Of a DNA stretch of 64,000 nucleotides, positions 41,470 to 63,464 are shown piece by piece. The notes beneath the pieces are model-generated. The model was not told the DNA's origin. It worked only from the letters and a program-made list of their open reading frames with translations, and searched no databases. The stretch spans positions 291,749-355,748 of the forward strand of contig CAWEKG010000003.1 in NCBI GenBank assembly GCA_963809595.1, given 5' to 3'. Origin of the DNA: an uncultured Chloroflexia bacterium. Its GTDB lineage: Bacteria > Chloroflexota > Limnocylindria > Limnocylindrales > CSP1-4. Numbering within the stretch: the stretch's first letter is position 1; the number at the start of each line of letters is the position of its first letter. The position numbers were made by a program, and so were the translations under genes.

Positions 41470-41556
41470 TCACCGGCGTAAGCCCATTCCCCGGCGGGCC
41501 AGCATCGGACAGAAGTCAGGAAGCCGGCCTCGCGGCCGGCTTCCGGTTGGGATTAC

Positions 41557-41631
41557 TGGAGCCGACACTCGGATTTGAACCGAGGACCTGCTGTTTACGA
41601 AACAGCTGCTCTACCGCTGAGCTATGTCGGC
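41557..41631 (-). tRNA. tRNA-Thr (anticodon CGU), with encoded CCA
   Basis: Folds into a cloverleaf: acceptor GCCGACA/TGTCGGC, D-arm GCTC-AGCGGTA-GAGC, anticodon arm GCTGT-TTCGTAA-ACAGC, T-arm CTCGG-TTCAAAT-CCGAG, discriminator T, then CCA. Confidence 0.9.
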
Positions 41632-41990
41632 GCCGATCAAGAATAGCCGATGCTCAGGGACATCAGCTATTCGCGCTTATGCGAACACGTTTGACATCGT
41701 GCTCAAAACCCTGGCACAACGCTCGAACAGCTGATGACTATTTGACGAACCTCCGGCTCGTCCCAGGAGACAAGAACGCTCGTTCTATAGCAGCGACCTC
41801 GCTCGAGGGTCAGCCGCCCGACGAACGAGCCGCTGGCTTCGAATCAGGTGCCAAACCCAAATCCAGGTCAGAGGAAATTCTGCGATGGCGTCTGACGACG
41901 TCGGCCGACTCCTGTCGGCGCGCTTCTGAACACTTGTTTTGTTCTGCGTGGGCTCTATGGGCGAGGCCGCTTGCTGATCAGCCGACGGGG

Positions 41991-43668: not shown

Positions 43669-43708
43669 GCGGGATCGGTGCCGAGGATCCGCGCCAGATC
43701 TGTTCACG

Positions 43709-44278: not shown

Positions 44279-44387
44279 GGCATCCTCAGCCCTGCGGCGA
44301 CCGCGCCGCTGCGAATGATGCTCCAGACAAGTGTGCCCGTTTGTATCAGCCCGCCACGCTCGTAGCACTGCGCTGAGGGCGAGAGAC

Positions 44388-44424
44388 TTACGAAACGGCT
44401 GCTCTACCGCTGAGCTATGTCGGC
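44388..44424 (-). repeat. 5' half (nt 1-37) of tRNA-Thr(CGU), followed by a non-tRNA sequence with a conserved motif
   Basis: GCCGACATAGCTCAGCGGTAGAGCAGCCGTTTCGTAA (minus strand). It diverges after the anticodon loop into GTCTCTCGCCCTCAGCGCAGTGCTAC...CTGATACAAACGGGCACAC, shared with the copy at 48286-48322. Its upstream flank is homologous to the region upstream of the intact tRNA. Confidence 0.75.
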
Positions 44425-44593
44425 CCGGGTTTCACGCTCAGTCACACCTATGACTGGCGATTCCAACGAATCCACTGCGCGACCGCAATGGCGATACAAC
44501 GAGAGTCTTCGAGACCTACGACGACGTCCGGCCGTGCCGATGTTAGCGCACCCGGCGATTCGTCCTACAGAGCGACCTCGTTCGCGCGCGCTG

Positions 44594-45187
44594 TCAAGCG
44601 AGTGGTAGTCGCCTCTCAAGCCACGTTGCAAGGAGGTCCGACACTAGGCTGACTGCTTCCTCGCTCGTCCGACCTGCCTCTTGGAGCGAGCCGATGACCC
44701 ATCGACCGAACACAGTCAACACCACCGCCACGGCATCCTCGTCCGAAGACAGCGGTCCGAGCGCCGTGCGGACGAGCGCATCGAGCTGTAGGTAGAATTG
44801 GGCCTCGGCATCGGCCCAGAACGAGACACCAGGGCCTTCACGTTGCGACGCGCGATACCACGACTCGCTTCGATCGAAGAACGCCGACAACTCCCGGACG
44901 AGGAGATCGACCCGATCTCGCAGCCCCACGACCCCGTCGAATATTTCCGGCGTCGGCATCCGTAGTTCACTCAAGATCTCCCCGGTGACCTCGGTCGCCA
45001 GCGCGGCGGCGGACCCGAAGTGGTTGGCGACCGTCCCCGGAGCGACATCGGCTCGCCGGGCGATGTCGAGCATCGTCGTCGACGAGACGCCCCGCTCCTG
45101 GTACAGCTCCAGGGCCGCGGCGACGATCCGGCGGCGCGTATCCGCCTGCTGCACCGCCCGCTTCCCGAGCTCGTACTTCCTTGGCAA
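44594..45187 (-). CDS. TetR-family transcriptional regulator
   Basis: TetR HTH (TTMLDIARRADVAPGTVANHF). Length 197 aa. Confidence 0.8.
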   Translation of the reverse strand: MPRKYELGKRAVQQADTRRRIVAAALELYQERGVSSTTMLDIARRADVAPGTVANHFGSAAALATEVTGEILSELRMPTPEIFDGVVGLRDRVDLLVRELSAFFDRSESWYRASQREGPGVSFWADAEAQFYLQLDALVRTALGPLSSDEDAVAVVLTVFGRWVIGSLQEAGRTSEEAVSLVSDLLATWLERRLPLA

Positions 45188-45316
45188 TCGGCTGTCTCTC
45201 CAATCTATTGACTTAATGATGCATCCATTATAGCATCGTGCCGTCGACCACCGCCGACGGCCGTCTGCTCATCGCGATGGTAGGTATGTCGTCGCCCAGA
45301 GATGAGGACCTGAGGC

Positions 45317-45828
45317 ATGAATTGGGCGGAACTCTACCCGTGGCTGCTCGTATTCCACGTCTTGTGTGTGCTCGGGTTCCTCGCGATCCACGGCGTGTCG
45401 ATGGGTGTCTGGTGGCGCGTCCGTCGCGAGCGCGACCGAGTGACATTCGCCGCATGGTTCGACCTGTCGGCCGGGTTCATGACGCCGATGCTGGTCACCG
45501 GCCTCCTGCTCATCGTGAGCGGCATCGTCGTCGGGATCGCGGCAGGGTGGTGGTTCAACGGCCAGTGGTGGCTGTGGGTGTCCGTCGTCCTGCTCGCCGT
45601 CATCGTCCTGTCGATGAACTCGCTCAACGCCATCCCGATGGTCGAGATGCGGCGTGGGCTCGGGATCCCGAGCCTGGCGGACCGCGCGGCTGGCACAAGT
45701 CGTGAGGCCGGTGGACGATGCGACCCTCGACACCCTCCTGCGTGACCGCCGTCCGCTCATCGGCAGCGCGCTTGCGATCGTCGGGATCGTCGTGGTCACG
45801 TGGCTGATGGAGTCCAAGCCGTTCTGAA
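45317..45828 (+). CDS. DUF2269-like integral membrane protein, apparently frameshifted near 45690-45740
   Basis: 4-TM protein. The plausible C-terminus (...LLRDRRPLIGSALAIVGIVVVTWLMESKPF*) lies in a different frame ending at 45828. Confidence 0.5.
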
Positions 45829-45855
45829 CGACCGCTCAGTGCGGCAAGAGGATCG

Positions 45856-46446
45856 ATGATGGTGACTAGATCGCTGGTGGTGGGGGAGGCGCGAACGGGG
45901 CACGACCTCGGAGACGCTGGCCGGCGGGCCGCTCAGGCGGCGGCTGGTCTGACGATCTGTGGCGCGACGGCCCTAGCCGCGTTCTTCGCGGTCGGCGAAC
46001 CATGGGGCACACTCAACGACACTCTGTCGATCGGCTTGGCCTGGTCCACATTGCCGATCGCGATCGACCTGGCTCGGCGGCATCCGGGGTCGCGGCTCCT
46101 TGGTCTCGGCGTCGTCTCTGATCTGTTCGGCGTCACCACGACGACGCTCTTCACGTCGCTGCTGATCTCGCGCCGGATGACCTTCGAGGACAGCCTCCTG
46201 CCGATCCTCACCGGCCAGGCGTTCATCGGTGCCTGGCTCATCCTCGCGGGCGCGTGGGCCTGGTCGCACCAAGGATCCCGCCGCGTGTCGGTGCTGGGCA
46301 TCGCCGGCGGCACGGGCCTCGTGGCGACCGCCGCCGGAATCGCGACGGGCGGCATGGAGAGTCCGGTCGCAGCCGTCGGGTTCATCTCGGCCCTTGTCGG
46401 CACGACTGGCTTCTACGCGCTCCTGGGTCTCCGGCTCGCTCGATGA
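45856..46446 (+). CDS. integral membrane protein (5-6 TM), unknown function
   Basis: Hydrophobic helical composition. Tandem with a similar gene at 46555. Confidence 0.45.
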   Translation: MMVTRSLVVGEARTGHDLGDAGRRAAQAAAGLTICGATALAAFFAVGEPWGTLNDTLSIGLAWSTLPIAIDLARRHPGSRLLGLGVVSDLFGVTTTTLFTSLLISRRMTFEDSLLPILTGQAFIGAWLILAGAWAWSHQGSRRVSVLGIAGGTGLVATAAGIATGGMESPVAAVGFISALVGTTGFYALLGLRLAR

Positions 46447-46554
46447 CCGACTAGCTGAAGGAGGGCTGATCGCTTTGATCGCCGCCCGCGCCGGTCATGG
46501 CTGCTGCTCCCGGTCCTGACGCTCCAACTACACGACCTGCATGAGGAGTCAACG

Positions 46555-47118
46555 ATGGCATCAGAAAGCCTGCTATCAATGTCCGGGATGCGCCTCGCCG
46601 GGCTGGCCTCACTCGCGAGTGCCGCAGTCGCTACAGTTGCTGTGATCCTTCTGTTCGCGATGTACGGCGCTTTCGGCGTCGGGGCGGCGTCCGCCGGCCA
46701 GACGTTCGGCGGGATCAATGACGTACTCACCTTGGTCGCTTATGTGCTGGCGGTGCCGGGTGTCCTGGCGACCGCGGCTATCCTCAGGTCTTCTCGTCCG
46801 GGTCTCGTTTCCCTTGGGGCGCTCGTCGCGCTCGCGGCACTTGGCGCGATCGCTGTGCTTCAGTGGCAGCTGGTCACGGGTGCCGTGACGTTCGAGCAGC
46901 AGATCGGACCGGTCTCGGTGGCCTTCCTTGCCCTGGGTGGGTGGTACGTCCTCTCCGGCTACTTGGGCGCGGGCGTCCTCCCCTATGGTGTCGGGATCGG
47001 TGCGCTGGCCGCGCTCTACGTCGGCTATCCGGTGCTCGCCTACCGCTTGGGTCGCTCGCTGGTGGCGAGGACCGGGGGTGTTGTCCAACCGCCAAGGGCG
47101 ATTGGCGAGGTGCAATGA
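46555..47118 (+). CDS. integral membrane protein, unknown function (similar architecture to the 45856 gene)
   Basis: Ala/Gly/Leu-rich TM helices. Length 187 aa. Confidence 0.45.
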   Translation: MASESLLSMSGMRLAGLASLASAAVATVAVILLFAMYGAFGVGAASAGQTFGGINDVLTLVAYVLAVPGVLATAAILRSSRPGLVSLGALVALAALGAIAVLQWQLVTGAVTFEQQIGPVSVAFLALGGWYVLSGYLGAGVLPYGVGIGALAALYVGYPVLAYRLGRSLVARTGGVVQPPRAIGEVQ

Positions 47119-47324
47119 CAAGCGTGGGAGATCGAGTCTGGATGAGGTGACCCCATTCGTCAGACGATGACGCCTGCGGCCCGCAGCATCGATCCTGGAC
47201 GGGCGCGCCGGCGACGCAGGTCGACAGATGATGGTGCATGCCGGCGAGGGCCAAGCATCCCTTCGAGCCGTGGCTTCTTGCGGACGGGACAAGACGAGAT
47301 AGGACAAGGGGAAGGAGAATCCCG

Positions 47325-47933
47325 ATGACGATGCGGGCCGGCGAGGTCTACGAACATCCCGGCGAACGATTGGTGGTCAGAGTCGGAACTGCCGAGTCTC
47401 AGGGCCGCGAGCTGATCATCGATCTCTACGTCCCGGGCAATGCGCCCGGGGTGCCGCCTCACCTTCACCCGCAGATGGAAGAGGCGCTCACGGTCATCCG
47501 AGGCAAGGTCGAAGTCATGTCACCGGATGGAGGGTGGCGGCTGGTTGGACCCGGCGAGCGCGTCGTCATTCCGGCGAACACGGCGCACAGTTGGCGGCCG
47601 GTCGGCGAAGACATCCGGATTCTGGGAGAGGCTCGCCCCGGGGCGAGATTCGAGGAGATGTGGCGCCAGTTCCTGGGCCTGTCGATGGACGAGAAGCTGG
47701 GCCCGAAGGGAGACCACCTGCCCTTCCTCCAGGCGATGGCGATGATCCGCGAGTTCCCGGACGTTATGGCGCTGGCCGGACCGCCAGTATTCCTGCAGCA
47801 CGCGCTGGCCGCGGTCCTCGCGCCGATTGCACGGCTCCGCGGATACAGGGGCAAGTATGAGGAGTACCTGAACCGAGGACCCTCCATGACCGTCGAACTC
47901 GAGCCGCTGCCGGTCTTTCCCTTGAAGCAATAG
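47325..47933 (+). CDS. cupin-domain protein
   Basis: Strong RBS GGGAAGGAGAA before the ATG. Cupin beta-barrel motif region (GVPPHLHPQMEEALTVIRGKVEV...IPANTAHSW). Confidence 0.7.
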   Translation: MTMRAGEVYEHPGERLVVRVGTAESQGRELIIDLYVPGNAPGVPPHLHPQMEEALTVIRGKVEVMSPDGGWRLVGPGERVVIPANTAHSWRPVGEDIRILGEARPGARFEEMWRQFLGLSMDEKLGPKGDHLPFLQAMAMIREFPDVMALAGPPVFLQHALAAVLAPIARLRGYRGKYEEYLNRGPSMTVELEPLPVFPLKQ

Positions 47934-48285
47934 CGTCCATTGAGCCACTCAGCTACATAGAGCAGACCTCGAGACGGCGTATCTATTGTGCGACCCTCTC
48001 CGCGAACGATGCCGCCGTGCTGCTCGATCGTCCACCCCGGTCCCAAGTCGACACGATGGCCGGCGAACGTACGATGACTCCCACTGTGCCGAGTGGCCAA
48101 GACCCTGACTCTTGGATCAGCCTACGATCTTATGAGACGATTCCGAGTAGCTAGGGTCCGTTTGGAGGCAGGCCGGCCGCAGCGTCGATCCTAGGCGAGC
48201 ATCCACTCGAAAGCGTATAGCTGATATGTGTGCCCGTTTGTATCAGGTCTCCACTCGGGGTAGCACTGCGCAGAGGGCTAGAGAC

Positions 48286-48322
48286 TTACGAAACAGCTGC
48301 TCTACCGCTGAGCTATGTCGGC
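48286..48322 (-). repeat. second 5'-half copy of tRNA-Thr(CGU), with the same downstream motif and upstream promoter-like flank
   Basis: GCCGACATAGCTCAGCGGTAGAGCAGCTGTTTCGTAA, followed by GTCTCTAGCCCTCTGCGCAGTGCTAC...GAGACCTGATACAAACGGGCACAC. About 130 bp upstream (48323-48460) aligns with the flank of the intact tRNA (41632-41760). Confidence 0.75.
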
Positions 48323-48569
48323 GCGAGCGCCAGTATAGGTGATGCTCGTGGGACATCGGCTCTTCGAGGCTGAGGGAGTGCGCTCGCGGACTTGCGTCAA
48401 TGCCGGCGCAACGCTCGTGCAACTGATGACTGTGAGGCAGCGGCACCGGTGGTGGATCCCGTGGACGGGTCGACGCTGGTGCGGAGACGGAAGCGCCTAG
48501 CCCCGCGAGATCGGCCCTCCTCGATCGTCTCTTCGGCCCCGTCGCACGTCTGGTGCGGCTCGGGTTCGC

Positions 48570-49304
48570 TCAGCCGGGCCGGAAGTCGATCGACTGGATG
48601 ATGCGATGGAGCTCATCCCGGATCGAGGGAGACATGTCGACGGTCCGCGAGGTCTGGGCCACGAAGCGAACCCCATTGACGTCCACGATCCATGCCTCGT
48701 TGACGCGGCCTGGCGCGTCGGCAGCACCGAGCCAGAAGACCGAGTCATCCGTGACCGGTCGCCCAGCCTCCAGGTGGGCGCCGTCCCAATACCGGAACTC
48801 GGCGATCTGGTCCCGGTCGCAGTCGGTGATGTCGACGCCGTCGGCGACCGCGAACTCGATGCGGAGCCCGTCGAAGCCGTCGAGGGTGATCGGGACAGCT
48901 GGCGCCGCATCAGTGAGGTGCTGTCGGTCAAGGGCGGTCGCCAGTTCCGCGACCGACGCGCCCGCCGACGGGTCGACCGGCCCCTTCTTCCAATGGCAGG
49001 GGTCCGCGTACACGTTGCCGACCAGCCAGAACCCGACCATCGCCGGGGCGGTGCCACCTCCCGCGACGGGCACTTCCTTGAAGAACAGATCGCAGCCATC
49101 CCAGCCCTCGGTCAGGGTGATCGACAGGGGAACGGGCGTCGCCTGGTCCGATGCGACAGTCCACGTCCCGGCCTCGCCTCGCACGCCCGCCGGGCATGAT
49201 GCCGTCATCGGGCTCGACCTCGGCGTCCCGGCGCACGCCGCGAGAACCACGGTCACGAGGACCAGAGCGAGCAGGGCCCGAGACATCGGGGTGACCTCCA
49301 GCAA
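48570..49304 (-). CDS. lipoprotein of unknown function
   Basis: Lipobox LAAC after MSRALLALVLVTVVLAAC. Length 244 aa. Confidence 0.55.
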   Translation of the reverse strand: MLEVTPMSRALLALVLVTVVLAACAGTPRSSPMTASCPAGVRGEAGTWTVASDQATPVPLSITLTEGWDGCDLFFKEVPVAGGGTAPAMVGFWLVGNVYADPCHWKKGPVDPSAGASVAELATALDRQHLTDAAPAVPITLDGFDGLRIEFAVADGVDITDCDRDQIAEFRYWDGAHLEAGRPVTDDSVFWLGAADAPGRVNEAWIVDVNGVRFVAQTSRTVDMSPSIRDELHRIIQSIDFRPG

Positions 49305-49445
49305 GATGGTCGCGACGGGACGGTCGCGGCCTTACACCAACGAGATGCCGTCGAAGGCCGCGCGGTTGGGTGCAAACCGAATCCCGCCGACCGGCATCTG
49401 GACAAGCGGCGCCACACTGGATCACGACCCGAGAGGGGATTCCTG

Positions 49446-50042
49446 TTGGACACGCTGGGCGCGCGAGACCGCATCGCGACATCGCCGGATGATGGCCTCA
49501 TCCGACGTGCGCGATCGGGTGACGCCGCAGCGTTCGACGCCCTGGTCGCGACCCGGGTCGATCGTTGCTATCGCCTGGCGTGGTCGATCCTGAACAGCGA
49601 CGCGGACGCGGCCGACGCGACCCAGGAGGCCTTCGTGTCCGCGTGGCGGGAGCTTCCCCGTCTGCGTGACACTTCCGCCTTCGATGGTTGGCTCAATCGG
49701 ATCGTTGCCAACGCGGCGCGGATGTCGCGGCGTCATCGCATTCGCCTCCGCGAGGTCCACATCCGTGAGGCCAGGGCCGATGGGGCGACGTTGGAAGCCC
49801 GCGAAGATCCGGCCGACCCGGCCGCCCATGCGGAGATCGATCGCGTCGCCGAGAGCGACGCGATCGGCCGCGCATTCGATCGATTGCGGCCCGAGGACCG
49901 CGCGATGCTGGCCTTGCATCACGTCGAGGAGCGACCCGTCCGGGAGATCGCCCGTTCGCTCGGCATCCCGGTCGGCACGGCCAAGTGGCGTCTCCATGCC
50001 GCGCGACGGGCGCTGGAGAAGGCGATGGAGGCCGAGTCGTGA
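49446..50042 (+). CDS. ECF-family RNA polymerase sigma factor
   Basis: Region 2 (DATQEAFVSAWRELPRL...) and region 4 (ERPVREIARSLGIPVGTAKWRLHAAR). TTG start. Length 198 aa. Confidence 0.85.
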   Translation: MDTLGARDRIATSPDDGLIRRARSGDAAAFDALVATRVDRCYRLAWSILNSDADAADATQEAFVSAWRELPRLRDTSAFDGWLNRIVANAARMSRRHRIRLREVHIREARADGATLEAREDPADPAAHAEIDRVAESDAIGRAFDRLRPEDRAMLALHHVEERPVREIARSLGIPVGTAKWRLHAARRALEKAMEAES

Positions 50043-54198: not shown

Positions 54199-56214
54199 TC
54201 AGGCCGGTGCGATCCCCAGGGCGCGGGCGATGACGGCCCCGGTGCCGAGGGCCAGGACGAGGGTCGCCCCGGCCATCCCGAGCGCCGGCCGCCAACCGAA
54301 CTCGTCGGCCAGGGTGGCCAGCGTCGCGGCGCACGGCACCGAGATCGAGACGACGATGGCGAAGACGAACAGCTGGGCCGACGACATGAAGCCGCCCAGG
54401 GTCGCCGCGCCGGCGCCGTACTGGACGATCGCCAGGGCGAGGAGGAGCTGGAGGGCCAGCTCCTTGCGCAGGAAGGCGAAGACGATGGCGACCCCGGCGA
54501 TGGCCGGCAGCCCGAGCAGGGTCTCGGTGATCGGGCCCAGGATCGAGGCGAGGGGGACCCACAGCCCCGACTCGTAGATGAGGCCGAGCACGAACGACCC
54601 GACCAGCATGATCGGGGTGGCCATGACCACGAACGAGCGGAACCGCGACCAGGCCTTGGCCCAGACATGCCGGACGACGGGCCGGCGGAGGGGAGCGAGC
54701 TCGAGGACCAGGGCGGGCTGTCGTCCCGGCACCACCGCGTTCGCGGCCAGGCTTGCGGCGAAGGTGATCAGGGCGACGACGCCGAACGCGGCCAGGGCGA
54801 CGAGCGGTCCGGCGAACGGGGCGAGAGCCGCGATCACGACCGCGGTCCGCGCCGAGCAGGGCGTCAGCGTGACCAGGAAGGCACCCAGGAGGCGCTCCCG
54901 GTGGGTGGCCAGGATCCGCGTCCCGTAGATCCCCGGCACGTTGCAGCCGGCTGCGGTGAGCAGGGGCACGGCGGTCCGGCCGGGCAGGCCCAGGACGTTG
55001 AAGACGCGATCCATCAGGACGGCCGCGCTGGTCAGGTAGCCAGAATCCTCGAGGCCGGCCACCAGGACATAGAACGTGAGGACGTAGGGGACGCCGATCG
55101 TCAGCATCGCCAGGAGCCCGCCGTCGACGGCCCACAGGATCGCGGTCGCCAGGGCCGGGAAGGGGACGATCGTCGTCACCAGCGTCGTCATCGCCGGGGA
55201 GACGGTCGCGCTCCAGAAGGAGGCCAGGACCCCGGACAGGAACCCGCCGACCACGACCATCGTGGCGAACAGGCCGAGCGTGACGCCGACGAACAGGGGC
55301 AGCCCCGGGAACGGCGAGGTGGCCAGCCTGGCGAGGCGGTCGGCCGTGGTGGCCGACGTGGTCCGGCGTCGCTCCACCTGCCCCGCCCACGCCGCGGCGA
55401 CCTGCCACAGGACCGGCTCGACCACGTCGGAGAGCCGGAGGGTCGCGGCGCCCCGGACCGAGACCGCGCCGCCGGTCACCGCCGCGAGGAGGCCGTCCGG
55501 GTCGTAGACGGCGGCGCCGAGGGAGTTCGACGAGCGGATCGTGCCGGCCTCGCCCTGGATCGCCCGCTCCACCTGGAACGGGAAGATGCCCGCCGGAGCC
55601 GTGGCGTGCGGTGACCGTCGTCCGTCGCCGACCTCGAGCCGCTGCCAGGCCAGGGCCACCGCATCGGCCATCGCCGCGTCCACGCCCCGGCCCGTCCGAC
55701 CGGTCGTCCGGTGGACCGGCGCGACGAGGAGCTGGGAGAGGCGGCCCGCGTCGATCTCGACGCCGTGGCCCGTCGCCTCATCGGTGAGGTTCGCGGCGAG
55801 GACGACCGGCAGACCCAGCTCCCGACAGGCGAGCACGAGCGGCAGGTGCCGGCCCAGGTCGCCGCTGTCGGCGACGACGAGGATCGAATCTGGCGCTTGG
55901 TCCAGCAGCAGCCGCCAGAACGGATCTTCGCCGGCCGGCCGATCGGTCAGCGAGCGGGTCCCGGGCAGGTCGACGAGCCAGGCCCCCCTGCCCCCGGCCA
56001 CGATGCGGCGACGCTCGACGTAGACCGTGGTCCCCGGCGTGTTCGAGGTCTCGACGAAGCGGTGGCTGGCCCGCGCGAGGAAGGTGGACTTGCCGACGTT
56101 CGGCCGGCCGACCAGGGCGACGGTGGGCAGTCGCTCATCGCCGAACGCAGGGCTCGCCGTGCCGTCCCGGTCGTCGGTCTCGCGTGTCGCGGTACGTCGG
56201 TGTCGGCCGATCAT
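54199..56214 (-). CDS. feoB: ferrous iron transport protein B
   Basis: N-terminal GTPase (GRPNVGKSTFL G1, DLPGT G3) followed by a polytopic Gate-type membrane domain. Length 671 aa. Confidence 0.9.
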   Translation of the reverse strand: MIGRHRRTATRETDDRDGTASPAFGDERLPTVALVGRPNVGKSTFLARASHRFVETSNTPGTTVYVERRRIVAGGRGAWLVDLPGTRSLTDRPAGEDPFWRLLLDQAPDSILVVADSGDLGRHLPLVLACRELGLPVVLAANLTDEATGHGVEIDAGRLSQLLVAPVHRTTGRTGRGVDAAMADAVALAWQRLEVGDGRRSPHATAPAGIFPFQVERAIQGEAGTIRSSNSLGAAVYDPDGLLAAVTGGAVSVRGAATLRLSDVVEPVLWQVAAAWAGQVERRRTTSATTADRLARLATSPFPGLPLFVGVTLGLFATMVVVGGFLSGVLASFWSATVSPAMTTLVTTIVPFPALATAILWAVDGGLLAMLTIGVPYVLTFYVLVAGLEDSGYLTSAAVLMDRVFNVLGLPGRTAVPLLTAAGCNVPGIYGTRILATHRERLLGAFLVTLTPCSARTAVVIAALAPFAGPLVALAAFGVVALITFAASLAANAVVPGRQPALVLELAPLRRPVVRHVWAKAWSRFRSFVVMATPIMLVGSFVLGLIYESGLWVPLASILGPITETLLGLPAIAGVAIVFAFLRKELALQLLLALAIVQYGAGAATLGGFMSSAQLFVFAIVVSISVPCAATLATLADEFGWRPALGMAGATLVLALGTGAVIARALGIAPA

Positions 56215-57924
56215 CGGACGGCCACGGGTCGATCCGCGGCGGCCGCGGCTCGCTCGCCGGGGTGCATCTCGACCGTCCCGGCCACCGACCGGGCGAGGGC
56301 TACCCGGGCCCGTCCGACGTCGAGCACGAGGGGACCGCCGAACGGGGCCGCCGCGGCGACCGACAGGTCGGCCCCGGGCTGGATCCCTTCGTGGGCGAGC
56401 TCGGCCCGATGCGTCGGGCCGACGCTCGCGACCCGGCCGCCGTCTCCCGGGGCGAGACGGTCGAGCGGGACGGTGGGCGCAGACGCAGACGCGGGCTGTC
56501 GGCCGCCGGACGACCCGCCGCCGGCCGGCGCGCTCTCAGCCGCCTCGCCGGCCAGCAGTGCCCCCACGGTCGACGCGGCCGCCCGGCCCTGCCCGATGCA
56601 GTCCGGCAATCCGACGCCCCGGTACGGAGCCCCGGCGAGCACGAGCCCGGGCAGGTCGGCGAGCGCCTCGAATACGGCCTCGACGCGGTCCAGGTGTCCG
56701 ACCGTGTAGTGCGGCATCTGGCCGTCCCAGCGGGCGACCCGCCGGAGGATCGGGCGGCCGTGCGCCCCGAGGGTCGTCGCGATGTCCCGCTCGGCGGCGG
56801 CCAGGAGCTCCTCGTCGCTGCCGGCCAGGATCCCCGGCCGCCGCGACCCGATGAAGCAGCGCAGGAGGATCGTCCCGTCCGGCGCGCGCCCGGCCCACTT
56901 CCGGGAGCTGAACGTGCAGGCGTCGATGGCCAGCGGCTCGCCCGCCGCGACGAGGAAGCCGTGCCCGGTCGGCGGCTCCGCGAAGGCGTCGAGCGGATAG
57001 GCCAGGGTGACGACGGCCGTGCTGCCGTGGGGGATCGTCCGGATCCGTTCGGCCGCGACCGGGACGAGACCCTCGAGCAGCTCCGCGGCAGCCGGACCGG
57101 AGGTCGCCAGGACCACCGCGTCGAAGTGCGTGGTCGGCTCGTCGCCCAGGCGGGTGTCGTACCCGCCTGTGGTCCGCCGGATCGGCCCGACCGAGGTGGC
57201 CGTCCGGACCGTGACATCCGTCATCGCGCTTATCGACTCGGCGAGCGCGTCGGTGAGCTGACCCGTCCCACCGGCCAGGGTCACGAACGGCGAGCCGCCC
57301 GGCTGCCCCTTCCGGGCGCGTCCCGAGGCCAGGCTGGCCAGGAGGAGGCTGCGGTGCTCGCGCTCGGCCTCGCGGAGCTGGGGGACCACGGCCAGCAGGC
57401 TCAGCTCGTCGACCGGCGTCCCGTAGACGCCGCCGATGAGCGGTCCCGCCAGCCGCTCCACGAGGGCGCCGCCGAGCCGCCGGCGGAGGAACGTGCCCAC
57501 GGCGACGTCGCTCGTCCAGTCCGTCGCGGGGGAGGACGAGGTCGAGCCCCATCCGGAGCTTCTCGAAGGGCGAGAAGAGGTCGCTCGTGACGAACGGGCG
57601 CATCCGGGTCGGCAGGACGAGGCCCATCCCGTCGGGCAGTCGGCGGAAGCGGCCGCCGCTCCGGATGTGGACCGTCCGGGGCTCGGTCGGCCGGATGATC
57701 GCCTCGCCGAGGCCGAGCTCGCGGGCCAGCTCGAGGGCCGCCGGCCGGTAGCTGATGAACGAGTCCGGTCCCGACTCGATGAGGAAGCCGTCCTGTCGCT
57801 CCGTGCCGACCTTGCCGCCCAGCCGGGCGCTCGCCTCGGCGAGGACGACCGGGATCCCGGCCCGACCCAGCGCGTAGGCCGCGGTCAGGCCGGTGATCCC
57901 ACCGCCGACGACGAGGACGGACAT
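56214..57924 (-). CDS. hemY: protoporphyrinogen/coproporphyrinogen III oxidase (HemY/CgoX) fused in frame, via a Gly/Ser linker, to a C-terminal FeoA domain; one frame disruption near 57500-57520
   Basis: N-terminal FAD motif (VLVVGGGITGLTAAYAL) in the frame of ORF 56536..58041. The rest of HemY (LIGGVYG..., WDGQMPHYTVGHLDRV, LAGAPYRGVGLPDCI) is in the frame of ORF 56211..57500. It continues without a stop through APAGGGSSGGRQPASASAPT into an FeoA-like SH3 domain (VPLDRLAPGDGGRVASVG...EMHPGE). Its stop overlaps the feoB ATG. Confidence 0.65.
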
Positions 57925-57935: not shown

Positions 57936-59133
57936 TCAGACGGCCGGGACGGCGGTCGTCGGCGGCACGTACGGGCAGAGCGGATCGGTCTCGAGCGGGT
58001 CGCCGGTCCAGGCGAAGGCGCGGGCCCGCGAGCCGCCGCACAGGCGGGCGTACTCGCAGCGGCCGCAGCGGCCCTTGTAGGTGGTCACGTCGCGCAGGCT
58101 GGTGAAGACCGGGTGGCTCCGGTAGAGCTCCACGATGTCGTCCTGCCGGACGTTGCCGACGACGAGGGGCAGGAAGCCGGACGGATAGACGTTCCCGTCA
58201 TGCGACGACGAACATGATCCCGTTGCCGTCGCGGACGCCGAAGCCGCGACCGACCGGGGTCGCCGCGATCGCCGCGTCGTCGAGGCCCTCCTCGTGCATC
58301 CGGCGGATGGCGATCCGGCGGTAGTGGGTGGCCTCGGTCGTCTTGATCGCGAACGGCGACGTCTTCGAGAGCTCGTAGAGCCAGCCGTTCAGCCGCTCGG
58401 AATCGGCCGGGCCGATCTCCCGGAGGCTCGTCCCGCGGCCGACCGAGATGAGGTAGAAGAGGCTCCAGCGGATGATCCCGAGGCGCTTCATGAGCTCGTA
58501 GGTCGCCGGCAGGTCGGACAGCGTCTCGTCGGTGACCAGGGTGTTGATCTGGAGCGGGAGACCCACCTCGTGGGCCCAGCCGGCGGCCCGTACGGTCAGG
58601 TCGAAGGTGCCCGGGACGCCCCGGAACCCGTCGTGACGCTGGGCGTCGGAGCCGTCGATGCTCAGCGACATCGTCTGGATCCCGGCCGCCTTCAGGGCGT
58701 AGAGCCGCTCGATGGTCATGTCGGGGGTCGCGGCCGGGGCGAGCGAGGCGCCGATCCCGCGCTCGGTCGCGGCGGTCACGAGCGTCTCGAGGTCGGGCCG
58801 GCGGAGCGGGTCGCCGCCGGTGAAGACGACGTGGGGGTACGGCTGGCCGAACCCGGTGACCCGGTCGAGCAGGGCGAAGCCCTCCTCGGTCGTCAGCTCG
58901 CGCGGGTCGCGCTCGGGCATCGCCGTGGCCCGGCAGTGCTTGCACGCGAGGCCGCACGAGAGGGTCGTCTCCCAGTAGACGAGCATCGGCGCCCGGCCGA
59001 AGACGTAGCCCTCGGGCCGGACCGCGCCGACCGCGGTCGGATGGCCGCCGGGATGGCCGCCGGGGTGGCCGCCGGGATGCCCCGGCCGCTCGACGACCGG
59101 CTCGACGATCGGTTCGCTGATCAGCTGGCTCAT
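57936..59133 (-). CDS. radical SAM/SPASM-domain protein (AhbD-like candidate), with one frame disruption near 58140-58200
   Basis: CxxxCxxC (CGLACKHC) radical-SAM core in the frame of ORF 58198..59133. The C-terminal Cys-rich SPASM/twitch region (CGRCEYARLCGG...CPY) is in the frame of ORF 57936..58133. The N-terminus carries an (HPGG)4 repeat. Confidence 0.65.
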
Positions 59134-59157: not shown

Positions 59158-60099
59158 TCAGGCGAGACCGACCGGGGCGTGGGACGCCGGGACCAGGGAC
59201 TCGACCGCGAGGTCGGCCAGCCCGGCGATGAAGGTGGGGTCGTCGTTCATCGAGCGGGCCCGCTCGAGGCGGATCCCCACCTCGGACGCGACGGCCTGCG
59301 CCTCGATGTCGATGTCGTAGAGGACCTCGAGGTGATCGGCCACGAAGCCGACCGGGCGGACCACGAGCCCGCGGACCCGGCTTGTCGCCAGCCGTCGGAT
59401 CTCGGCCAGGATGTCCGGCCCGAGCCACGGCTCGCCGGTCCGGCCGGCGCTCTGGTAGGCGAAGTCGTAGCCGGTCAGGCCGAGCCGCTCGGCGACGAGG
59501 GCGGCCGTGGCCGCCAGCTGGTCGGGGTACGGATCGCCCTCGGCCACGACCCGTGCCGGCAGGCTGTGGGCGGTGAACATCACCCGCACCTCGTTCGGGT
59601 CCGCGAACCGGCCGATCGCCTCGCGGGTCGTCTCGGCCAGCGCCTCGATGAACCGGGGCTGGTCGTGCCAGGAGTCGACGAAGATGACCGCGGGCGCCGA
59701 CTCGCCGAGCCCGGCCAGGGCGCCGTCCACGGCCCGCCGGTAGCCGGCCGCGTTCGAGGACGCCTGGGGGGCGAGGGCGATCGCCACGAACCGGCGCACA
59801 CCGTCGGCCGCCATCCCCTCGACGATCCGACCGATCCGCGGCTCGATGTGGCGCATCCCGGCGTAGACCCGGACCGGGTGACCGCGGGCGGCCAGCTCGA
59901 GCTCGAGGGCTGCCCGCTGGGCCTCGACGATCCGCGACAGGGGCGACCCGCCGCCGATCGCCCGGTAGCGCTCGAGGAGCTCGTCGAGGAGCTCCGGCGA
60001 GGGCGGGCTGCCCCGGCGGATGTCGGTGTAGTAGGCCTCGACCTGGTCGAGCCGATCGGGGCTCCCGTAGGCCATGAGCAGGACGGCGTCGGCGCTCAC
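59158..60099 (-). CDS. hemH: ferrochelatase (coproporphyrin ferrochelatase type)
   Basis: RBS AAGGAG then GTG. The GTG overlaps the hemE stop (GTGA). Ferrochelatase motifs are present (LLMAYGSP, FTAHSLP). Confidence 0.85.
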   Translation of the reverse strand: MSADAVLLMAYGSPDRLDQVEAYYTDIRRGSPPSPELLDELLERYRAIGGGSPLSRIVEAQRAALELELAARGHPVRVYAGMRHIEPRIGRIVEGMAADGVRRFVAIALAPQASSNAAGYRRAVDGALAGLGESAPAVIFVDSWHDQPRFIEALAETTREAIGRFADPNEVRVMFTAHSLPARVVAEGDPYPDQLAATAALVAERLGLTGYDFAYQSAGRTGEPWLGPDILAEIRRLATSRVRGLVVRPVGFVADHLEVLYDIDIEAQAVASEVGIRLERARSMNDDPTFIAGLADLAVESLVPASHAPVGLA

Positions 60100-61146
60100 T
60101 GCGCGCTCCTTCGGCTGGTCCGCTCGTGGACGAGGTCGACGAGACGGCGGAGGTCGTCGGGATCGGTCTCGGGCAGGACGCCGTGACCGAGGTTGAAGAC
60201 GTGGCCCGGGCGACCGCCGGCCTGGTCCAGGATCCAGTCCGCGGCGTCGGCGACCGCCTCGAACGGGCCGAGGAGGAGAGCCGGGTCGAGGTTCCCCTGG
60301 ACGGCCCGGTCGCCGACCAGCTCCCAGCCGTCGTCCAGGGCGATCCGCCAGTCGAGCCCGATCACGTCGCCGCCCGCCTCGGCCTGCCGGGAGAGCAGGC
60401 CGGCGGTCCCGATGCCGAAATGGGTCCGCGGGACGCCGAGGGGGGCGAGGCCGTCGAACAAGCGGCGCATCCAGGGCCCGACGTGGAGGTCGTAGTCGCG
60501 TGGCCCGAGACCGCCGACCCACGAGTCGAAGACCTGGACCGCCTGGGCCCCGGCCGCCACCTGCGCGCCGAGGTAGGCGATCGTCGTCTCGACGAGACGC
60601 TCCATGAGCGTCGCCCAGGCCGTCGGCTCGGCGTGCATGAAGGCGCGGGTCCGCAGGAACTCGCGCGACGGGCCGCCCTCGATGAGGTAGCAGGCGAGGG
60701 TGAACGGCGCCCCGGCGAAGCCGATGAGCGGGACCGGCGAGGCCGCCCGGATGAGCCGGATCGCCTCGAGGAGGGGACCGACCGCGGCCTCCGGATCGAA
60801 CGCCCGGAGCCGGGCCACGTCGGCGGCCGTCCGGATCGGCGTCTCGATGACCGGCCCGACGCCCGGCCTGATGTCGAAGGCGACGCCGAGCCCGGTGAAC
60901 GGCGTCGTGATGTCGGCGAAGAGGATCGCCGCGTCCACGCCGAGCCGGCGGACCGGCTGGAGGGTGACCTCGGCGCAGAGGGCCGGATCCCGGGTGATCT
61001 CGATGAGCGAGGCGCGCTCCCGGACGGCCCGGAACTCGGGCAGCGAGCGGCCGGCCTGGCGCATGAACCAGACCGGGGTCGCGTCGACCGGCTCGCGCCG
61101 GCAGGCGCGCAGGTAGCGCTCGGCCCGCGGATCGACGGCGGGGCAC
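60096..61146 (-). CDS. hemE: uroporphyrinogen decarboxylase; the N-terminus reads through without a canonical start in the current frame
   Basis: PVWFMRQAGR, ITRDPALCAEVTLQP and LIGFAGAPFTLACYLIEGG are classic URO-D motifs. In frame there is no ATG/GTG/TTG between the hemL stop (61188) and ...RYLRACRREPVDATPVW. Removing one C from the CCCC run at 61140-61143 gives a GTG start (V-PAVDPRAERYLRAC...). Confidence 0.8.
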
Positions 61147-61187
61147 GCCGGAGCCCGGACCCGAGGCGGCGAGGACCGGCGACCCGG

Positions 61188-62478
61188 TCACGAGCGGAAG
61201 GCCGCCCGGGCGGCCTCGATCGTCTCGGCCACCACCTCCGGCGCCGTGGGCCAGGGAGATGAACCAGGCCTCGAACTGGGACGGCGGGAGGAGGACGCCG
61301 GCATCGAGCATCGCCCCGAAGAACCGGGCGAAGGCGTCTCGATCGGACTCGCCGGCCTCGGCGTAGTCGCGCGGGGCCGCCGCCCGGAAGAAGACCGTCA
61401 GCAGGGCTCCCACCCGGCCGATCGAGATGCTCGCCCCGGCCGCCGCGGCCGCGTCCCGCAGACCGCTCTCGAGGGCCGCCCCGGTCGCCTCCAGCTCGAC
61501 GTAGCGGTCGGGTCCCAGGTGGCGCAGCGTGGCGACCCCGGCGGCCATCGTCAGGGGATGCCCGGAGAGGGTCCCGGCCTGGTAGACCGGACCGGCCGGG
61601 GCGACCAGGTCCATGATGTCGCGGCGGCCGCCGTAGGCGCCGACCGGCAGACCGCCGCCGATGATCTTGCCCAGGACCGTCAGGTCCGGGCGCATCCCGT
61701 AGCGCGCCTGGGCGCCGCCGTGGGCGACCCGGAAGCCGGTGATGACCTCGTCGAAGATGAGCAGGGCGCCATCGGCGGTGGTGACCTCGCGGAGCCCCTC
61801 GAGGAAGCCCGGGGCGGGCGGCACGACCCCGACGTTGGCGGCGACCGGCTCGACGATGATCGCGGCGATCCGGCCGGGGTGCCGCTCGAACGCCTCGCGG
61901 ACGGCGGCCAGGTCGTTGTAGGGCACGACGACCGTGGCCTCGGCGATGCTGGCCGGGACGCCGGCGCTGCCCGGGATGGCCAGCGTGGCGATGCCCGAGC
62001 CGGCCTCCACGAGGAGGCCGTCGGAGTGGCCGTGGTAGCCGCCGGCGAACTTCAGGACGAGGTCGCGGCCGGTGGCGCCGCGGGCGAGCCGGAGCGCGCT
62101 CATCGCGGCCTCGGTGCCCGAGGAGGTGAAGCGGAGTCGCTCCATCGAGGGGAGGGCTGACCGGATCGCCTCGCCCAGCTCGATCTCGCGGGGCGAGGTC
62201 GCCCCGAGGGCGAAGCCGTCGAGGGCCGCCGCCCGGACCGCCTCCACGACGTCCGGATGGGCGTGACCGAGGATCGCCGGCCCCCAGGCGCCGATGTAGT
62301 CGAGGTACCAGCGGCCGTCCGCGTCGCGGACGCGCGGTCCCTCGCCGGCGTCCAGGATGAGCGGCGGTCGGCCGACCGACCGGAAGGCCCGGACCGGGCT
62401 GTTGACGCCGCCCGGGAAGAGGTCCTCGGCTCGCCGGATGAGCTCGGCCTGGCGGGTCTCGATCGTCGTCTCCATCAA
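61188..62478 (-). CDS. hemL: glutamate-1-semialdehyde 2,1-aminomutase, with one frame disruption near 61240
   Basis: TTG/ATG start. GSA-AT motifs are present ([17 protein letters not shown], a PLP Lys region [16 protein letters not shown]). The body is in one frame to ...FISLAHG. The conserved C-terminus [17 protein letters not shown] is in the adjacent frame, with its stop at 61188. Confidence 0.85.
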
Positions 62479-63464
62479 TCGTTCCCTTCGCGGAGCCAGG
62501 CCGCCAGGTCCGCGGCCGCGTAGGTGATCACGAACGTCGCCCCGGCCCGGACGATCGAGGTCGCGGCCTCGAGGTGGGTCCGCCGCCGGTCGATCCAGCC
62601 GAGACGGGCGGCCGCCTCGATCTGGGCGTACTCGCCGCTGACCTGGTAGGCGCCGATCGGGACCTCGAACCGCTCGCGGGCGGCGGCGAGGATGTCGAGC
62701 GAGGGCATCGCCGGCTTGACCAGGAGCATGTCGGCGCCCTCGTCGAGGTCGACCGCCATCTCGCGCATCGCCTCGCGTCGGTTGGCCGGGTCCATCTGGT
62801 AGCCCCGTCGGTCACCGAACGCGGGAGCCGAGTCGGCGGCCTCGCGGAAGGGCCCGTAGAACGCCGAGGCGGTCTTGGCGGCGTAGGCCAGGATCGGGGT
62901 CTCGCTGAAGCCGGCATCGTCGAGACCGGCCCGGATCGCGGCGACCTGGCCGTCCATCATCGCGCTGGGGGCGACGACGTCGGCGCCGGCCCGGGCCTGC
63001 GACGCGGCGGTCTCGGCCAGCCGGGCGATCGCCTCGTCGTTGAGGACGCTGCCCCCGGCGTCCACCGGCCCGCAGTGACCGTGGTCGGTGTACTCGCACA
63101 GGCAGGTGTCGGCGATGAGGACCAGGTCCAGTCCCGCGTCGCGGATCCGGCCGAGCGTCTCCTGGACGATCCCGTCCTCGATCCAGGCGCCGGTCCCGAT
63201 CGGGTCCTTGGCGGCCGGCAGGCCGAACAGGATGACCGCACCGACGTCGAGAGCCGCCAGACGGCGTGACTCGACGACGGCCTCGTCCGGGCTGAGCCGG
63301 GAGACGCCGGGCAGCGACGAGATCGGCGAGCGGGTCGCCCGTCCGGGCTGGACGAAGAGCGGGGCGACGAGCTGGCGGGGGTGGAGACGGGTCTCGCGGA
63401 CCAGCGCCCGGAGCGGGGCGGTCCGGCGCAGGCGCCGAAGGCGGTGGCCGGGGTCGGGGGTCAC
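62475..63464 (-). CDS. hemB: porphobilinogen synthase (delta-aminolevulinate dehydratase)
   Basis: 329 aa with the active-site Lys region (...[12 protein letters not shown]..., [11 protein letters not shown]) and a Zn/Cys-type motif ([14 protein letters not shown]). Confidence 0.9.

What the first reader, a model, noticed from the sequence alone, without database searches (positions are those of the whole stretch)
57936..59133. Radical-SAM/SPASM enzyme at the position where HemQ would be expected in a coproporphyrin-type heme operon
Between hemH (ferrochelatase) and hemY there is a CxxxCxxC radical-SAM protein (~375 aa reconstructed). It has a Cys-rich SPASM/twitch C-terminus (CGRCEYARLCGG...CPY) and an unusual N-terminal (HPGG)4 repeat. 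No hemQ/chdC (coproheme decarboxylase) is present in the operon. AhbD, the oxygen-independent radical-SAM coproheme decarboxylase of the siroheme-dependent route, has this architecture. An AhbD-like enzyme serving a hemY/hemH pathway would be a hybrid pathway arrangement.
Basis: inference. Interest (0 to 1): 0.6.

Follow-up and report, generated by a model that had tools for sequence, protein, structure and literature searches.

The report
AhbD-like radical-SAM gene in heme operon
The gene between ferrochelatase and hemY most likely encodes an oxygen-independent enzyme for the last step of heme synthesis; this arrangement is already in the literature, and the break in the gene is probably an assembly error.

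Summary
Window 57936-59133 (- strand) encodes a 398-aa radical-SAM/SPASM protein between hemH and hemY. The operon is hemD-hemB-hemL-hemE-hemH-rSAM-hemY::feoA-feoB.

The reading frame is broken by one extra base at about 58206. hemY and two unrelated genes in the window are broken the same way. Short-read assemblies of close relatives (90% aa identity) have all these genes intact. The breaks are therefore most likely assembly errors.

The protein belongs to NCBIfam TIGR04053 (452 bits, cutoff 395). Its nearest characterised family is AhbD, the heme b synthase (299 bits, below the cutoff of 500). It keeps the CX3CX2C motif and the CX2CX5CX20C auxiliary-cluster motif. Three of the four AuxI cysteine positions are Glu267, Ser318 and Ser368, the signature published for AhbDs of non-methanogenic archaea; the fourth is Val300.

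In 36 of 80 species genomes the family sits directly beside heme genes, mostly hemY, and in 7 of them beside hemQ. The best reading is an oxygen-independent coproheme decarboxylase serving the coproporphyrin pathway.

Reviews already report ahbD colocalised with hemY/hemH/hemQ. The window has no hemQ, but relatives carry a hemQ-hemH2 pair elsewhere, so replacement of HemQ is not shown. This is a new member of a known kind, of low to moderate interest.

The parts
58207..59133 (-). Radical-SAM gene, 5' part: codons 1-309 (radical-SAM core and the start of the SPASM-like domain)
   Evidence: ORF; tblastn with P0001 gives 91% identity over residues 1-309 in frame -2; GC3 0.96
58206..58206 (-). Single extra base that shifts the frame. 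The window reads ATGTTCGTCGTCGCATGAC; the relative reads ATGTTCATC-TCGCATGAC. Exact position is ambiguous within GTCG.
   Evidence: blastn alignment to L002; removing one base restores a 1197-nt ORF and the conserved F-V-S-H-D
57936..58205 (-). Radical-SAM gene, 3' part: codons 310-398 plus stop (SPASM-like C-terminus)
   Evidence: tblastn residues 310-398 in frame -3, 88% identity; 64 of 89 codons identical to L002, 14 synonymous and 11 non-synonymous changes
59038..59079 (-). N-terminal His-Pro-Gly-Gly repeat (H19-P32; three HPGG plus HP)
   Evidence: Read from the sequence; 2-5 HP copies in 106 of 120 close homologs; predicted disordered, pLDDT <50 for residues 1-33
58933..58956 (-). CX3CX2C radical-SAM cluster motif (C60, C64, C67)
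   Evidence: Read from the sequence; Cys in 103-104 of 112 aligned sequences (111 representatives plus the window protein)
57975..58067 (-). CX2CX5CX20C motif (C356, C359, C365, C386), the predicted AuxII [4Fe-4S] site; Ser368 occupies the position of the AuxI Cys
   Evidence: motif matches the CX2CX5CX20-38C reported for all AhbDs (PMC10452713)
59158..60099 (-). hemH (ferrochelatase, 313 aa); ends 24 nt before the radical-SAM start codon
   Evidence: PF00762 268 bits, full profile; TIGR00109 216 bits against a cutoff of 125
56211..57924 (-). hemY (CgoX/PgoX-type FAD oxidase) fused to a C-terminal FeoA domain; frameshifted by one extra base at about 57496/57497; starts 11 nt after the radical-SAM stop codon
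   Evidence: the repaired protein covers Amino_oxidase positions 1-442 of 443 and also matches FeoA; relatives have an intact 490-aa HemY or a 553-aa HemY-FeoA
54199..56214 (-). feoB (ferrous iron transporter); its start codon overlaps the hemY::feoA stop by 4 nt
   Evidence: ORF; the homologous gene in L003 has FeoB_N, Gate and FeoB_C domains
60096..61187 (-). hemE (uroporphyrinogen decarboxylase); the start codon lies somewhere between 61064 and 61187
   Evidence: PF01208 on the orthologs in L002 and L004
61240..64000 (-). hemL (61240-62478), hemB (62475-63464) and the 3' end of a hemC/hemD fusion (63490 to beyond 64000, cut by the window end)
   Evidence: tblastn with window and L004 references; Pfam labels on L004 genes

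Best explanation
The gene encodes an AhbD-type radical-SAM heme synthase, that is, an oxygen-independent coproheme decarboxylase, of the TIGR04053 subfamily. It is co-transcribed with the coproporphyrin-pathway genes hemE, hemH and hemY.

Inferred mechanism, by analogy with characterised AhbD:
- The CX3CX2C [4Fe-4S] cluster reductively cleaves SAM.
- The 5'-deoxyadenosyl radical abstracts a hydrogen from the propionate side chains on rings A and B of Fe-coproporphyrin III, the product of HemY plus HemH.
- Each substrate radical loses CO2 and one electron, giving a vinyl group. Two SAM are used per heme b.
- The electron leaves through the single C-terminal auxiliary [4Fe-4S] cluster (C356/C359/C365/C386).

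The AuxI cluster of methanogen and sulfate-reducer AhbD is absent. Its ligand positions are Glu267, Val300, Ser318 and Ser368, as published for AhbDs of non-methanogenic archaea.

The enzyme probably works alongside, not instead of, a peroxide-dependent HemQ encoded elsewhere, in the way hemN pairs with hemF. The one-base frameshift in this copy is most likely an assembly error rather than gene inactivation.

Shown here: family membership, motifs, operon position, conservation of synteny, absence of hemQ from the window. Inferred: substrate, chemistry, cluster content, artefactual nature of the frameshift.
For: Family and sequence:
- NCBIfam: TIGR04053 452 bits (cutoff 395). Next best are AhbD TIGR04545 at 299 bits, NirJ2 174, AhbC 138, NirJ 131. 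Peptide maturases score about 100 or less.
- JGI names several close homologs 'AdoMet-dependent heme synthase'.
- In an alignment of 111 representatives at 50% identity, positions 267/300/318/368 are C/C/C/C in nine sequences. Five of these were scanned, and AhbD was the best NCBIfam hit for each. The same positions are E/x/S/S in the window protein and most others.
- The nine full-SPASM sequences form an exclusive clade in a neighbour-joining tree. Identity between the two groups is 37%; within the groups it is 40% and 45%.
- PMC10452713 reports that all AhbDs share CX3CX2C and CX2CX5CX20-38C, and that AhbDs of non-methanogenic archaea replace three AuxI Cys with Glu, Ser and Ser.

Synteny:
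- hemE-hemH-rSAM-hemY is intact in relatives at 82-90% aa identity and across Limnocylindrales-like genomes.
- Of 80 GTDB species loci, 36 have a heme gene within 400 nt of the radical-SAM gene. hemY is adjacent in 28 and hemQ in 7. 49 have a heme gene within 10 kb.
- Actinomycetota have hemA-hemE-rSAM-hemY-hemQ-hemH.

Structure and precedent:
- The AF2 model has pLDDT 90. The nearest solved folds are the SPASM enzymes PqqE, SuiB and anSME.
- In Haloferax volcanii, deleting ahbD impairs only anaerobic, heme-remediable growth, while the ChdC homolog serves aerobic growth (PMC5746218).

Frameshift as artefact:
- Four one-base frame breaks in 64 kb, two of them in unrelated genes.
- The codons after the break are still conserved.
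- Illumina-type k141 contigs of close relatives are intact.
- Long-read-style assemblies of relatives carry similar breaks: hemH in L004, L005 and L006; hemY in L077.
Against: - No member of TIGR04053 from a bacterium with the coproporphyrin pathway has been assayed. NCBI leaves the family unnamed, and the protein fails the AhbD equivalog cutoff (299 against 500).
- In M. barkeri AhbD, perturbing AuxI stalls the reaction at the monovinyl intermediate (PMC10452713). An enzyme without AuxI may therefore behave differently.
- HemY in the same operon is an O2-dependent oxidase, so an O2-independent partner is not obviously required.
- In about half of the surveyed genomes, mainly Acidobacteriota, the gene has no adjacent heme gene.
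- I could not confirm that the archaeal Glu/Ser/Ser AhbDs score as TIGR04053.
- The frameshift could be real. I had no reads, and I could not find the source contig.
Confidence: 0.68

Rival explanations
1. The gene, and hemY beside it, are genuine pseudogenes. The organism has inactivated this branch and makes heme through a hemQ-containing module elsewhere, or scavenges heme.
For: Both the radical-SAM gene and hemY carry one-base insertions relative to intact relatives. Relatives own a separate hemQ-hemH2 module.
Against: Breaks of the same kind occur in an S8 protease and in a lipoprotein-like gene elsewhere in the window. There are no stop codons or further decay. Codons downstream of the break are still conserved, all four Cys are retained, and GC3 periodicity continues in the shifted frame. 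Frame breaks are seen in relatives only in long-read-style assemblies. hemY is needed for either decarboxylase, so losing it would abolish the whole pathway.
Confidence: 0.13
2. The enzyme is a tetrapyrrole radical-SAM enzyme with a different reaction. It might catalyse oxygen-independent oxidation of coproporphyrinogen III, acting as an anaerobic counterpart of its most frequent neighbour HemY. It might instead perform an AhbC/NirJ-like side-chain chemistry, or act as a heme chaperone.
For: hemY is the most frequent direct neighbour, adjacent in 28 of 80 loci. The family is a separate NCBIfam equivalog with no assigned function. It lacks the AuxI cluster that matters for the second decarboxylation in M. 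barkeri AhbD.
Against: AhbD is by far the closest characterised family, at 299 bits against 131-174 for NirJ, NirJ2 and AhbC. The Glu/Ser/Ser signature is that of proteins treated as AhbD in archaea. Direct hemQ-rSAM adjacency in 7 lineages fits an isofunctional pair. [quoted passage not shown]
Confidence: 0.15
3. It is a SPASM peptide maturase (RiPP-type) or another unrelated SPASM enzyme that lies in the heme operon by chance.
For: The SPASM fold resembles SuiB, SkfB, CteB and anSME. There are weak HMM hits to maturase families.
Against: Maturase HMM scores are about 100 bits or less, far below their cutoffs. Synteny with heme genes is conserved across at least five phyla. Gene spacing is tight: 24 nt and 11 nt to the neighbouring genes, leaving no room for a precursor peptide gene.
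Confidence: 0.03

Closest known systems
AhbD (AdoMet-dependent heme synthase / oxygen-independent coproheme decarboxylase; NCBIfam TIGR04545), characterised from Methanosarcina barkeri and Desulfovibrio
   Same: Radical-SAM core with CX3CX2C. C-terminal SPASM-type domain with CX2CX5CX20-38C. About 40% identity to full-SPASM AhbD-type representatives. Second-best HMM hit at 299 bits. Associated with genes that make coproheme.
   Different: Scores below the AhbD equivalog cutoff of 500. Lacks all four AuxI cysteines (E267, V300, S318, S368). Sits with hemY/hemH rather than ahbA/B/C. Carries an N-terminal HPGG repeat tail.
AhbD of non-methanogenic archaea (Aeropyrum, Sulfolobus, Pyrobaculum, Halorubrum group; PMC10452713). 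Haloferax volcanii ahbD has genetic support (PMC5746218).
   Same: The same reduced cysteine set, with Glu, Ser and Ser replacing three AuxI Cys. In haloarchaea it co-exists with an aerobic ChdC-type enzyme.
   Different: Those enzymes act after the siroheme/Ahb route. This one is bacterial and sits in a coproporphyrin-pathway operon. I could not test whether the archaeal proteins fall within TIGR04053.
TIGR04053 family radical SAM/SPASM protein (BA_1875 family)
   Same: Full-length match, 452 bits against a cutoff of 395. Close homologs are named this way by NCBI and JGI.
   Different: None. This is the family the protein belongs to. The family has no experimentally assigned function.
HemQ/ChdC (peroxide-dependent coproheme decarboxylase, chlorite-dismutase fold)
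   Same: Predicted to catalyse the same net reaction on the same substrate. Often encoded next to this radical-SAM gene.
   Different: Unrelated fold and chemistry. Absent from the window. Present in relatives inside the operon or as a hemQ-hemH2 pair.
HemN/CgdH (radical-SAM coproporphyrinogen dehydrogenase)
   Same: A radical-SAM enzyme that converts propionate to vinyl; the oxygen-independent member of an isoenzyme pair.
   Different: It acts on the metal-free porphyrinogen, binds two SAM, has no SPASM domain and shows no significant sequence similarity. No HemN family appears among the NCBIfam hits shown (best 25 of 42).

Membership tests
TIGR04053 radical SAM/SPASM family | Full-length HMM score at or above the curated cutoff (395 bits) | tested here: met
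   452.3 bits, profile positions 3-366 of 366.
AhbD (heme b synthase) | NCBIfam TIGR04545 equivalog score at or above 500 bits | tested here: not met
   299 bits. The full-SPASM representatives score 371-497 bits, with AhbD as their best hit.
AhbD (heme b synthase) | N-terminal CX3CX2C radical-SAM motif | tested here: met
   C60, C64, C67
AhbD (heme b synthase) | C-terminal CX2CX5CX20-38C motif (AuxII ligands), present in all AhbDs according to PMC10452713 | tested here: met
   C356-X2-C359-X5-C365-X20-C386; all four are invariant in alignment A1
AhbD (heme b synthase), methanogen/sulfate-reducer type | Full eight-Cys SPASM motif with an AuxI cluster (M. barkeri C223, C256, C274, C324) | tested here: not met
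   The aligned positions are E267, V300, S318 and S368. This matches the Glu/Ser/Ser pattern of non-methanogenic archaeal AhbDs.
AhbD (heme b synthase) | SAM-dependent conversion of Fe-coproporphyrin III to heme b | not testable with these tools
   Needs an anaerobic enzyme assay or genetic complementation
AhbD (heme b synthase) | Genomic linkage to genes that produce coproheme (ahbABC or hemY/hemH) | tested here: met
   Lies directly between hemH and hemY, and this is conserved in relatives. ahbA/ahbB were not searched for. Only 1 of 86 loci has a second NirJ-like paralog nearby.
SPASM peptide maturases (sactipeptide, ranthipeptide, PqqE, MftC) | Family HMM above cutoff, and an adjacent precursor peptide gene | tested here: not met
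   Best scores are PqqE 104 (cutoff 381), MftC 98 (cutoff 265) and StsB 100 (cutoff 625). The neighbours are heme genes separated by 11-24 nt.
NirJ / AhbC | Family HMM above cutoff | tested here: not met
   NirJ2 174 (cutoff 500), AhbC 138 (cutoff 650), NirJ 131 (cutoff 515), NirJ1 127 (cutoff 650)
Coproporphyrin-dependent (CPD) heme pathway operon | hemY (CgoX), hemH (CpfC) and a coproheme decarboxylase, with no hemF/hemN step | tested here: inconclusive
   hemY and hemH are present and of the right families. No hemQ in the window. The substrate specificity of HemY and HemH (copro- versus proto-) cannot be read from these HMMs. hemF and hemN were not searched for, and the rest of the genome is unavailable.

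The most novel reading that the evidence does not exclude
In this Limnocylindrales lineage the heme operon may encode a complete terminal branch of its own: HemY, a short HemH, and a single-auxiliary-cluster AhbD-like enzyme. That enzyme would be the main coproheme decarboxylase, working even in an aerobe next to an O2-dependent HemY. A second, separately encoded hemQ-hemH2 module would form a parallel branch with its own ferrochelatase. The conserved, copy-number-variable N-terminal HPGG histidine repeat would be a functional heme- or iron-binding or partner-docking tail. The HemY-FeoA fusion would couple iron import directly to heme synthesis.
Probability: 0.2. Interest if true: 0.5.

Novelty: new member of a known kind. 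Interest (0 to 1): 0.3.

Why it matters
The identity of the oxygen-independent coproheme decarboxylase of the coproporphyrin pathway is still only a bioinformatic proposal. [quoted passage not shown] PMC10965808 calls the enzyme 'yet unknown'.

This window adds one more example. My survey shows that the candidate family is TIGR04053, which lacks AuxI. The family is embedded in heme operons of Chloroflexota, Actinomycetota and Armatimonadota, among others, often directly beside hemQ. That gives experimenters a well-defined target. It also points to a mechanistic question: how is the second decarboxylation done without AuxI?

For the window itself the practical message is ordinary. The gene should be annotated as AhbD-like, and the frame break should be treated as a probable assembly error.

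Tried and rejected
- Programmed frameshift at the radical-SAM break: rejected. The conserved Ser-His-Asp codons (TCG CAT GAC) are already in the shifted frame upstream of the in-frame TGA, so the shift lies in GTCG and not at the stop. No slippery site is visible. Close relatives are unbroken.
- Common sequence motif at the four break sites: none convincing beyond ubiquitous CGA/TCG.
- Finding the source contig by exact-protein look-up with two window proteins: not on record. The assembly type of the window therefore remains inferred.
- L004 against L005 as evidence of indel-dominated error: not convincing, with 51 mismatches against 4 gap openings. Dropped.
- A 55-sequence alignment was too diverse for the genome scan. 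A 12-sequence alignment worked.
- The afdb50 fold library was unavailable. The PDB has no AhbD-family structure. The best sequence hit is PqqE at E = 3e-21, and the best fold hits are PqqE, SuiB and anSME, so structure does not discriminate function.
- The MMBR 2017 review (PMC5312243) is not held. The term 'TIGR04053' occurs in no held paper.
- Neighbourhood clustering in Acidobacteriota found a c-type cytochrome, a SIS-domain protein and an isochorismatase-like protein, but no clear heme-synthesis context. These assignments are from reading the sequences; they were not scanned against a family library.
- Whole-genome presence or absence of hemQ, ahbA/B/C, hemN or cgoN could not be tested, because only the 64-kb window is available.
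Full report
**What is in the sequence**

The window has about 72% G+C. Genes from 54 to 64 kb lie on the - strand. The finding's coordinates are exact. An ATG at 59133 opens a 311-aa ORF that stops at 58198. A second ORF in another frame runs to the stop at 57936. Translating the junction shows ...GNGIMFVVA* in one frame and SHDGNVYPSGF... in the next.

A blastn alignment to the 85%-identical relative L002 shows a single extra base. The window reads ATGTTCGTCGTCGCATGAC where the relative reads ATGTTCATC-TCGCATGAC. Removing one base at about 58206 gives a 1197-nt ORF of 398 aa. tblastn with the intact homolog P0001 confirms the junction: residues 1-309 in frame -2 and residues 310-398 in frame -3.

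- CX3CX2C at C60/C64/C67.
- CGRCEYARLCGG...LCPY at the C-terminus.
- An N-terminal HPGG repeat with three full units plus HP.

**The frameshift is probably an assembly artefact**

hemY, immediately downstream, is also split by one extra base at about 57496/57497. The repaired HemY covers the whole Amino_oxidase profile (positions 1-442 of 443) and also matches a FeoA domain.

Two unrelated genes in the window are broken in the same way:
- An S8 protease at about 9766-9774. Its conserved C-terminus ISDHEAYGAGLVDAGAGVR* lies in another frame.
- A lipoprotein-like gene at about 42524-42529.

That is at least four frame breaks in 64 kb. None shows stop codons or other decay. After the radical-SAM break, 64 of 89 codons are identical to L002 and all four cysteines are retained.

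Close relatives on MEGAHIT-style 'k141' contigs have intact genes: radical-SAM 398 aa, HemY 490 or 553 aa. Relatives on 'contig_N' or chromosome-level long-read-style assemblies carry similar breaks: hemH in L004, L005 and L006, and hemY in L077.

I could not find the source contig, and I had no reads. I rate the artefact explanation at about 0.8, as an inference. A programmed frameshift is unlikely. The conserved S-H-D codons are already in the new frame before the TGA, and relatives are unbroken.

**Operon**

On the - strand, in order:
- hemC/D fusion, cut by the window end (63490 onward).
- hemB, 62475-63464.
- hemL, 61240-62478.
- hemE, 60096 to about 61187.
- hemH, 59158-60099.
- radical-SAM gene, 57936-59133.
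- hemY::feoA, 56211-57924.
- feoB, 54199-56214.

Spacing is tight. hemB/hemL and hemY::feoA/feoB overlap by 4 nt. The gaps on either side of the radical-SAM gene are 24 nt and 11 nt.

The window holds only one hemH and one radical-SAM copy. An HMM built from 15 HemQ sequences finds nothing in the six-frame translation (best E = 1.4). The same HMM recovers HemQ in 19 related loci.

**What the protein is**

NCBIfam places it in TIGR04053 at 452 bits against a cutoff of 395. The next hits are AhbD/TIGR04545 at 299 bits (cutoff 500, so a fail), NirJ2 174, AhbC 138, NirJ 131, PqqE 104 and maturases at about 100 or less. Pfam gives Radical_SAM plus SPASM.

Thousands of homologs exist. The best are 90% identical, 398 aa, uninterrupted, and come from 'Candidatus Limnocylindrales'/Chloroflexota metagenome bins. 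JGI labels several of them 'AdoMet-dependent heme synthase'.

An exhaustive search of representatives at 50% identity returned 150 relatives, and I aligned 111 of them.
- The three radical-SAM cysteines and C356/C359/C365/C386 are nearly invariant.
- Positions 267/300/318/368 are C/C/C/C in nine sequences. Five of these were scanned, and AhbD was the best NCBIfam hit for each.
- The same positions are E/x/S/S in the window protein and most others.
- The nine full-SPASM sequences form an exclusive clade in a neighbour-joining tree. Identity between the groups is 37%; within the groups it is 40% and 45%.

Fix et al. 2023 (PMC10452713) describe exactly this split. AhbDs of methanogens and sulfate reducers have eight SPASM cysteines and two auxiliary clusters. 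AhbDs of non-methanogenic archaea keep only CX2CX5CX20-38C and replace three AuxI ligands with Glu, Ser and Ser. The window protein is therefore an AhbD relative of the type with one auxiliary cluster.

The AF2 model is confident (pLDDT 90) apart from a disordered tail at residues 1-33. Its nearest solved folds are PqqE, SuiB and anSME. No AhbD-family structure is in the PDB.

**Context across genomes**

A scan of one genome per GTDB species returned 80 loci. Arrangements by lineage:
- Limnocylindrales-like Chloroflexota: hemE-hemH-rSAM-hemY.
- Propionibacteriaceae and other Actinomycetota: hemA-hemE-rSAM-hemY-hemQ-hemH. The hemQ identity is confirmed by PF06778 at 211 bits.
- Anaerolineae, Armatimonadota (Chthonomonas) and Fervidifonticultor: hemQ directly upstream of the radical-SAM gene, inside full heme operons.
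- Acidobacteriota: hemY-rSAM, or the radical-SAM gene alone.

Overall, 36 of 80 loci have a heme gene within 400 nt. hemY is adjacent in 28 and hemQ in 7. 49 of 80 have a heme gene within 10 kb. Only one locus has a second NirJ-like paralog nearby.

This conserved linkage to the last steps of the coproporphyrin pathway, together with the frequent hemQ-rSAM pairing, is what one expects of an oxygen-independent isoenzyme of HemQ.

**Does it replace HemQ here?**

This is not established. HemQ is found in several relatives:
- The closest GTDB relative (L007, 84% identity) has a chlorite-dismutase-family gene between hemB and hemL.
- L012 and L077 have a canonical actinobacterial-type HemQ a few kb from the operon (NF042928, 315 bits against a cutoff of 235).
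- A search with that HemQ returned thousands of homologs. The only two NCBI-named proteins among the 120 best listed are from Ca. Limnocylindrales.
- Two long contigs show a hemQ-hemH2 pair. In L087 it sits at an unrelated site. In L088 it sits in a divergent feoA-feoB-hemQ-hemH2 unit upstream of hemA.

In the window, the region upstream of hemA lies beyond position 64000. A hemQ elsewhere in this genome is therefore quite possible.

**Literature**

[quoted passage not shown] - Mingers et al. 2024 still call the oxygen-independent enzyme unknown (PMC10965808).
- In Haloferax volcanii, ahbD is needed for anaerobic growth and the ChdC homolog for aerobic growth, and both defects are rescued by heme (PMC5746218).

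It still lacks biochemical proof.

**Mechanism proposed (inferred from AhbD)**

The radical-SAM cluster cleaves SAM. The 5'-deoxyadenosyl radical abstracts a hydrogen from the ring A and then the ring B propionate of Fe-coproporphyrin III. Each substrate radical loses CO2 and one electron to give a vinyl group. The electron leaves through the single auxiliary cluster. Two SAM are consumed per heme b.

One question is open. M. barkeri AhbD with a perturbed AuxI accumulates the monovinyl intermediate, so it is unclear how AuxI-less enzymes complete the second step.

**N-terminal repeat**

The (G)HPGG units vary from 2 to 5 copies, and 106 of 120 close homologs have at least two. They are followed by a conserved VGAVRPEGYVY segment. 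His-rich tails also recur sporadically in distant members such as P0263 and P0152. The function of the repeat is unknown.

**Verdict**

It is a new member of a known kind, of modest interest.

Noticed in passing
window 56211-57924 (-), 54199-56214 (-): HemY carries a C-terminal FeoA domain (PF04023, 41 bits) and overlaps feoB by 4 nt, so ferrous-iron import is fused or coupled to the heme operon. The fusion also occurs in the relative L003 (553 aa; FeoA hit on record). Other relatives keep separate feoA-feoB units beside the operon (L088; feoB hits at the upstream edge of L010, L011, L013 and L077).
   Followed up: partly
window ~57496/57497; L077 ~11518-11523: The hemY frameshift in the window and the one in the distant relative L077 (about 50% aa identity) fall at the same codon. 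In both, an extra C sits just before the conserved GAC-G(A/T)C (Asp-Asp/Val-Ile-Ala-Val-Gly) stretch. This may be a systematic base-calling hotspot; it is unexplained.
   Followed up: partly
window ~9766-9774 (+) and ~42524-42529 (-): Two further one-base frame breaks. One is in an S8 subtilase, whose ORF then runs on spuriously to 10621. The other is in a roughly 550-aa lipoprotein-like gene with no Pfam match. At least four genes in the 64 kb are affected.
   Followed up: partly
L077 16725-18337; L087 10001-11874; L088 10001-11760: Relatives carry a hemQ gene immediately followed by a second, longer ferrochelatase (361-387 aa in L087 and L088). This forms a separate module from the main heme operon, which has its own short hemH.
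   Followed up: partly
window ~37700-50000: A stretch with lower G+C (about 66% against 72-75%) and weak codon-position signal surrounds the only tRNA, tRNA-Thr(CGT) at 41557-41631 (-). It may be an acquired island.
   Followed up: no
window 2583-4595 (+): A 670-aa secreted-looking protein with internally repeated domains separated by long Pro/Thr/Ala-rich linkers and a C-terminal membrane anchor. A roughly 200-nt patch (3352-3558) shows its codon signal in a different phase.
   Followed up: no
window 59158-62478 (-): The 1106-aa 'ORF' listed here is not a gene. The hemL frame stays open by chance through hemE (which is in another frame) and into hemH, because stop codons are rare at this G+C content.
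   Followed up: yes
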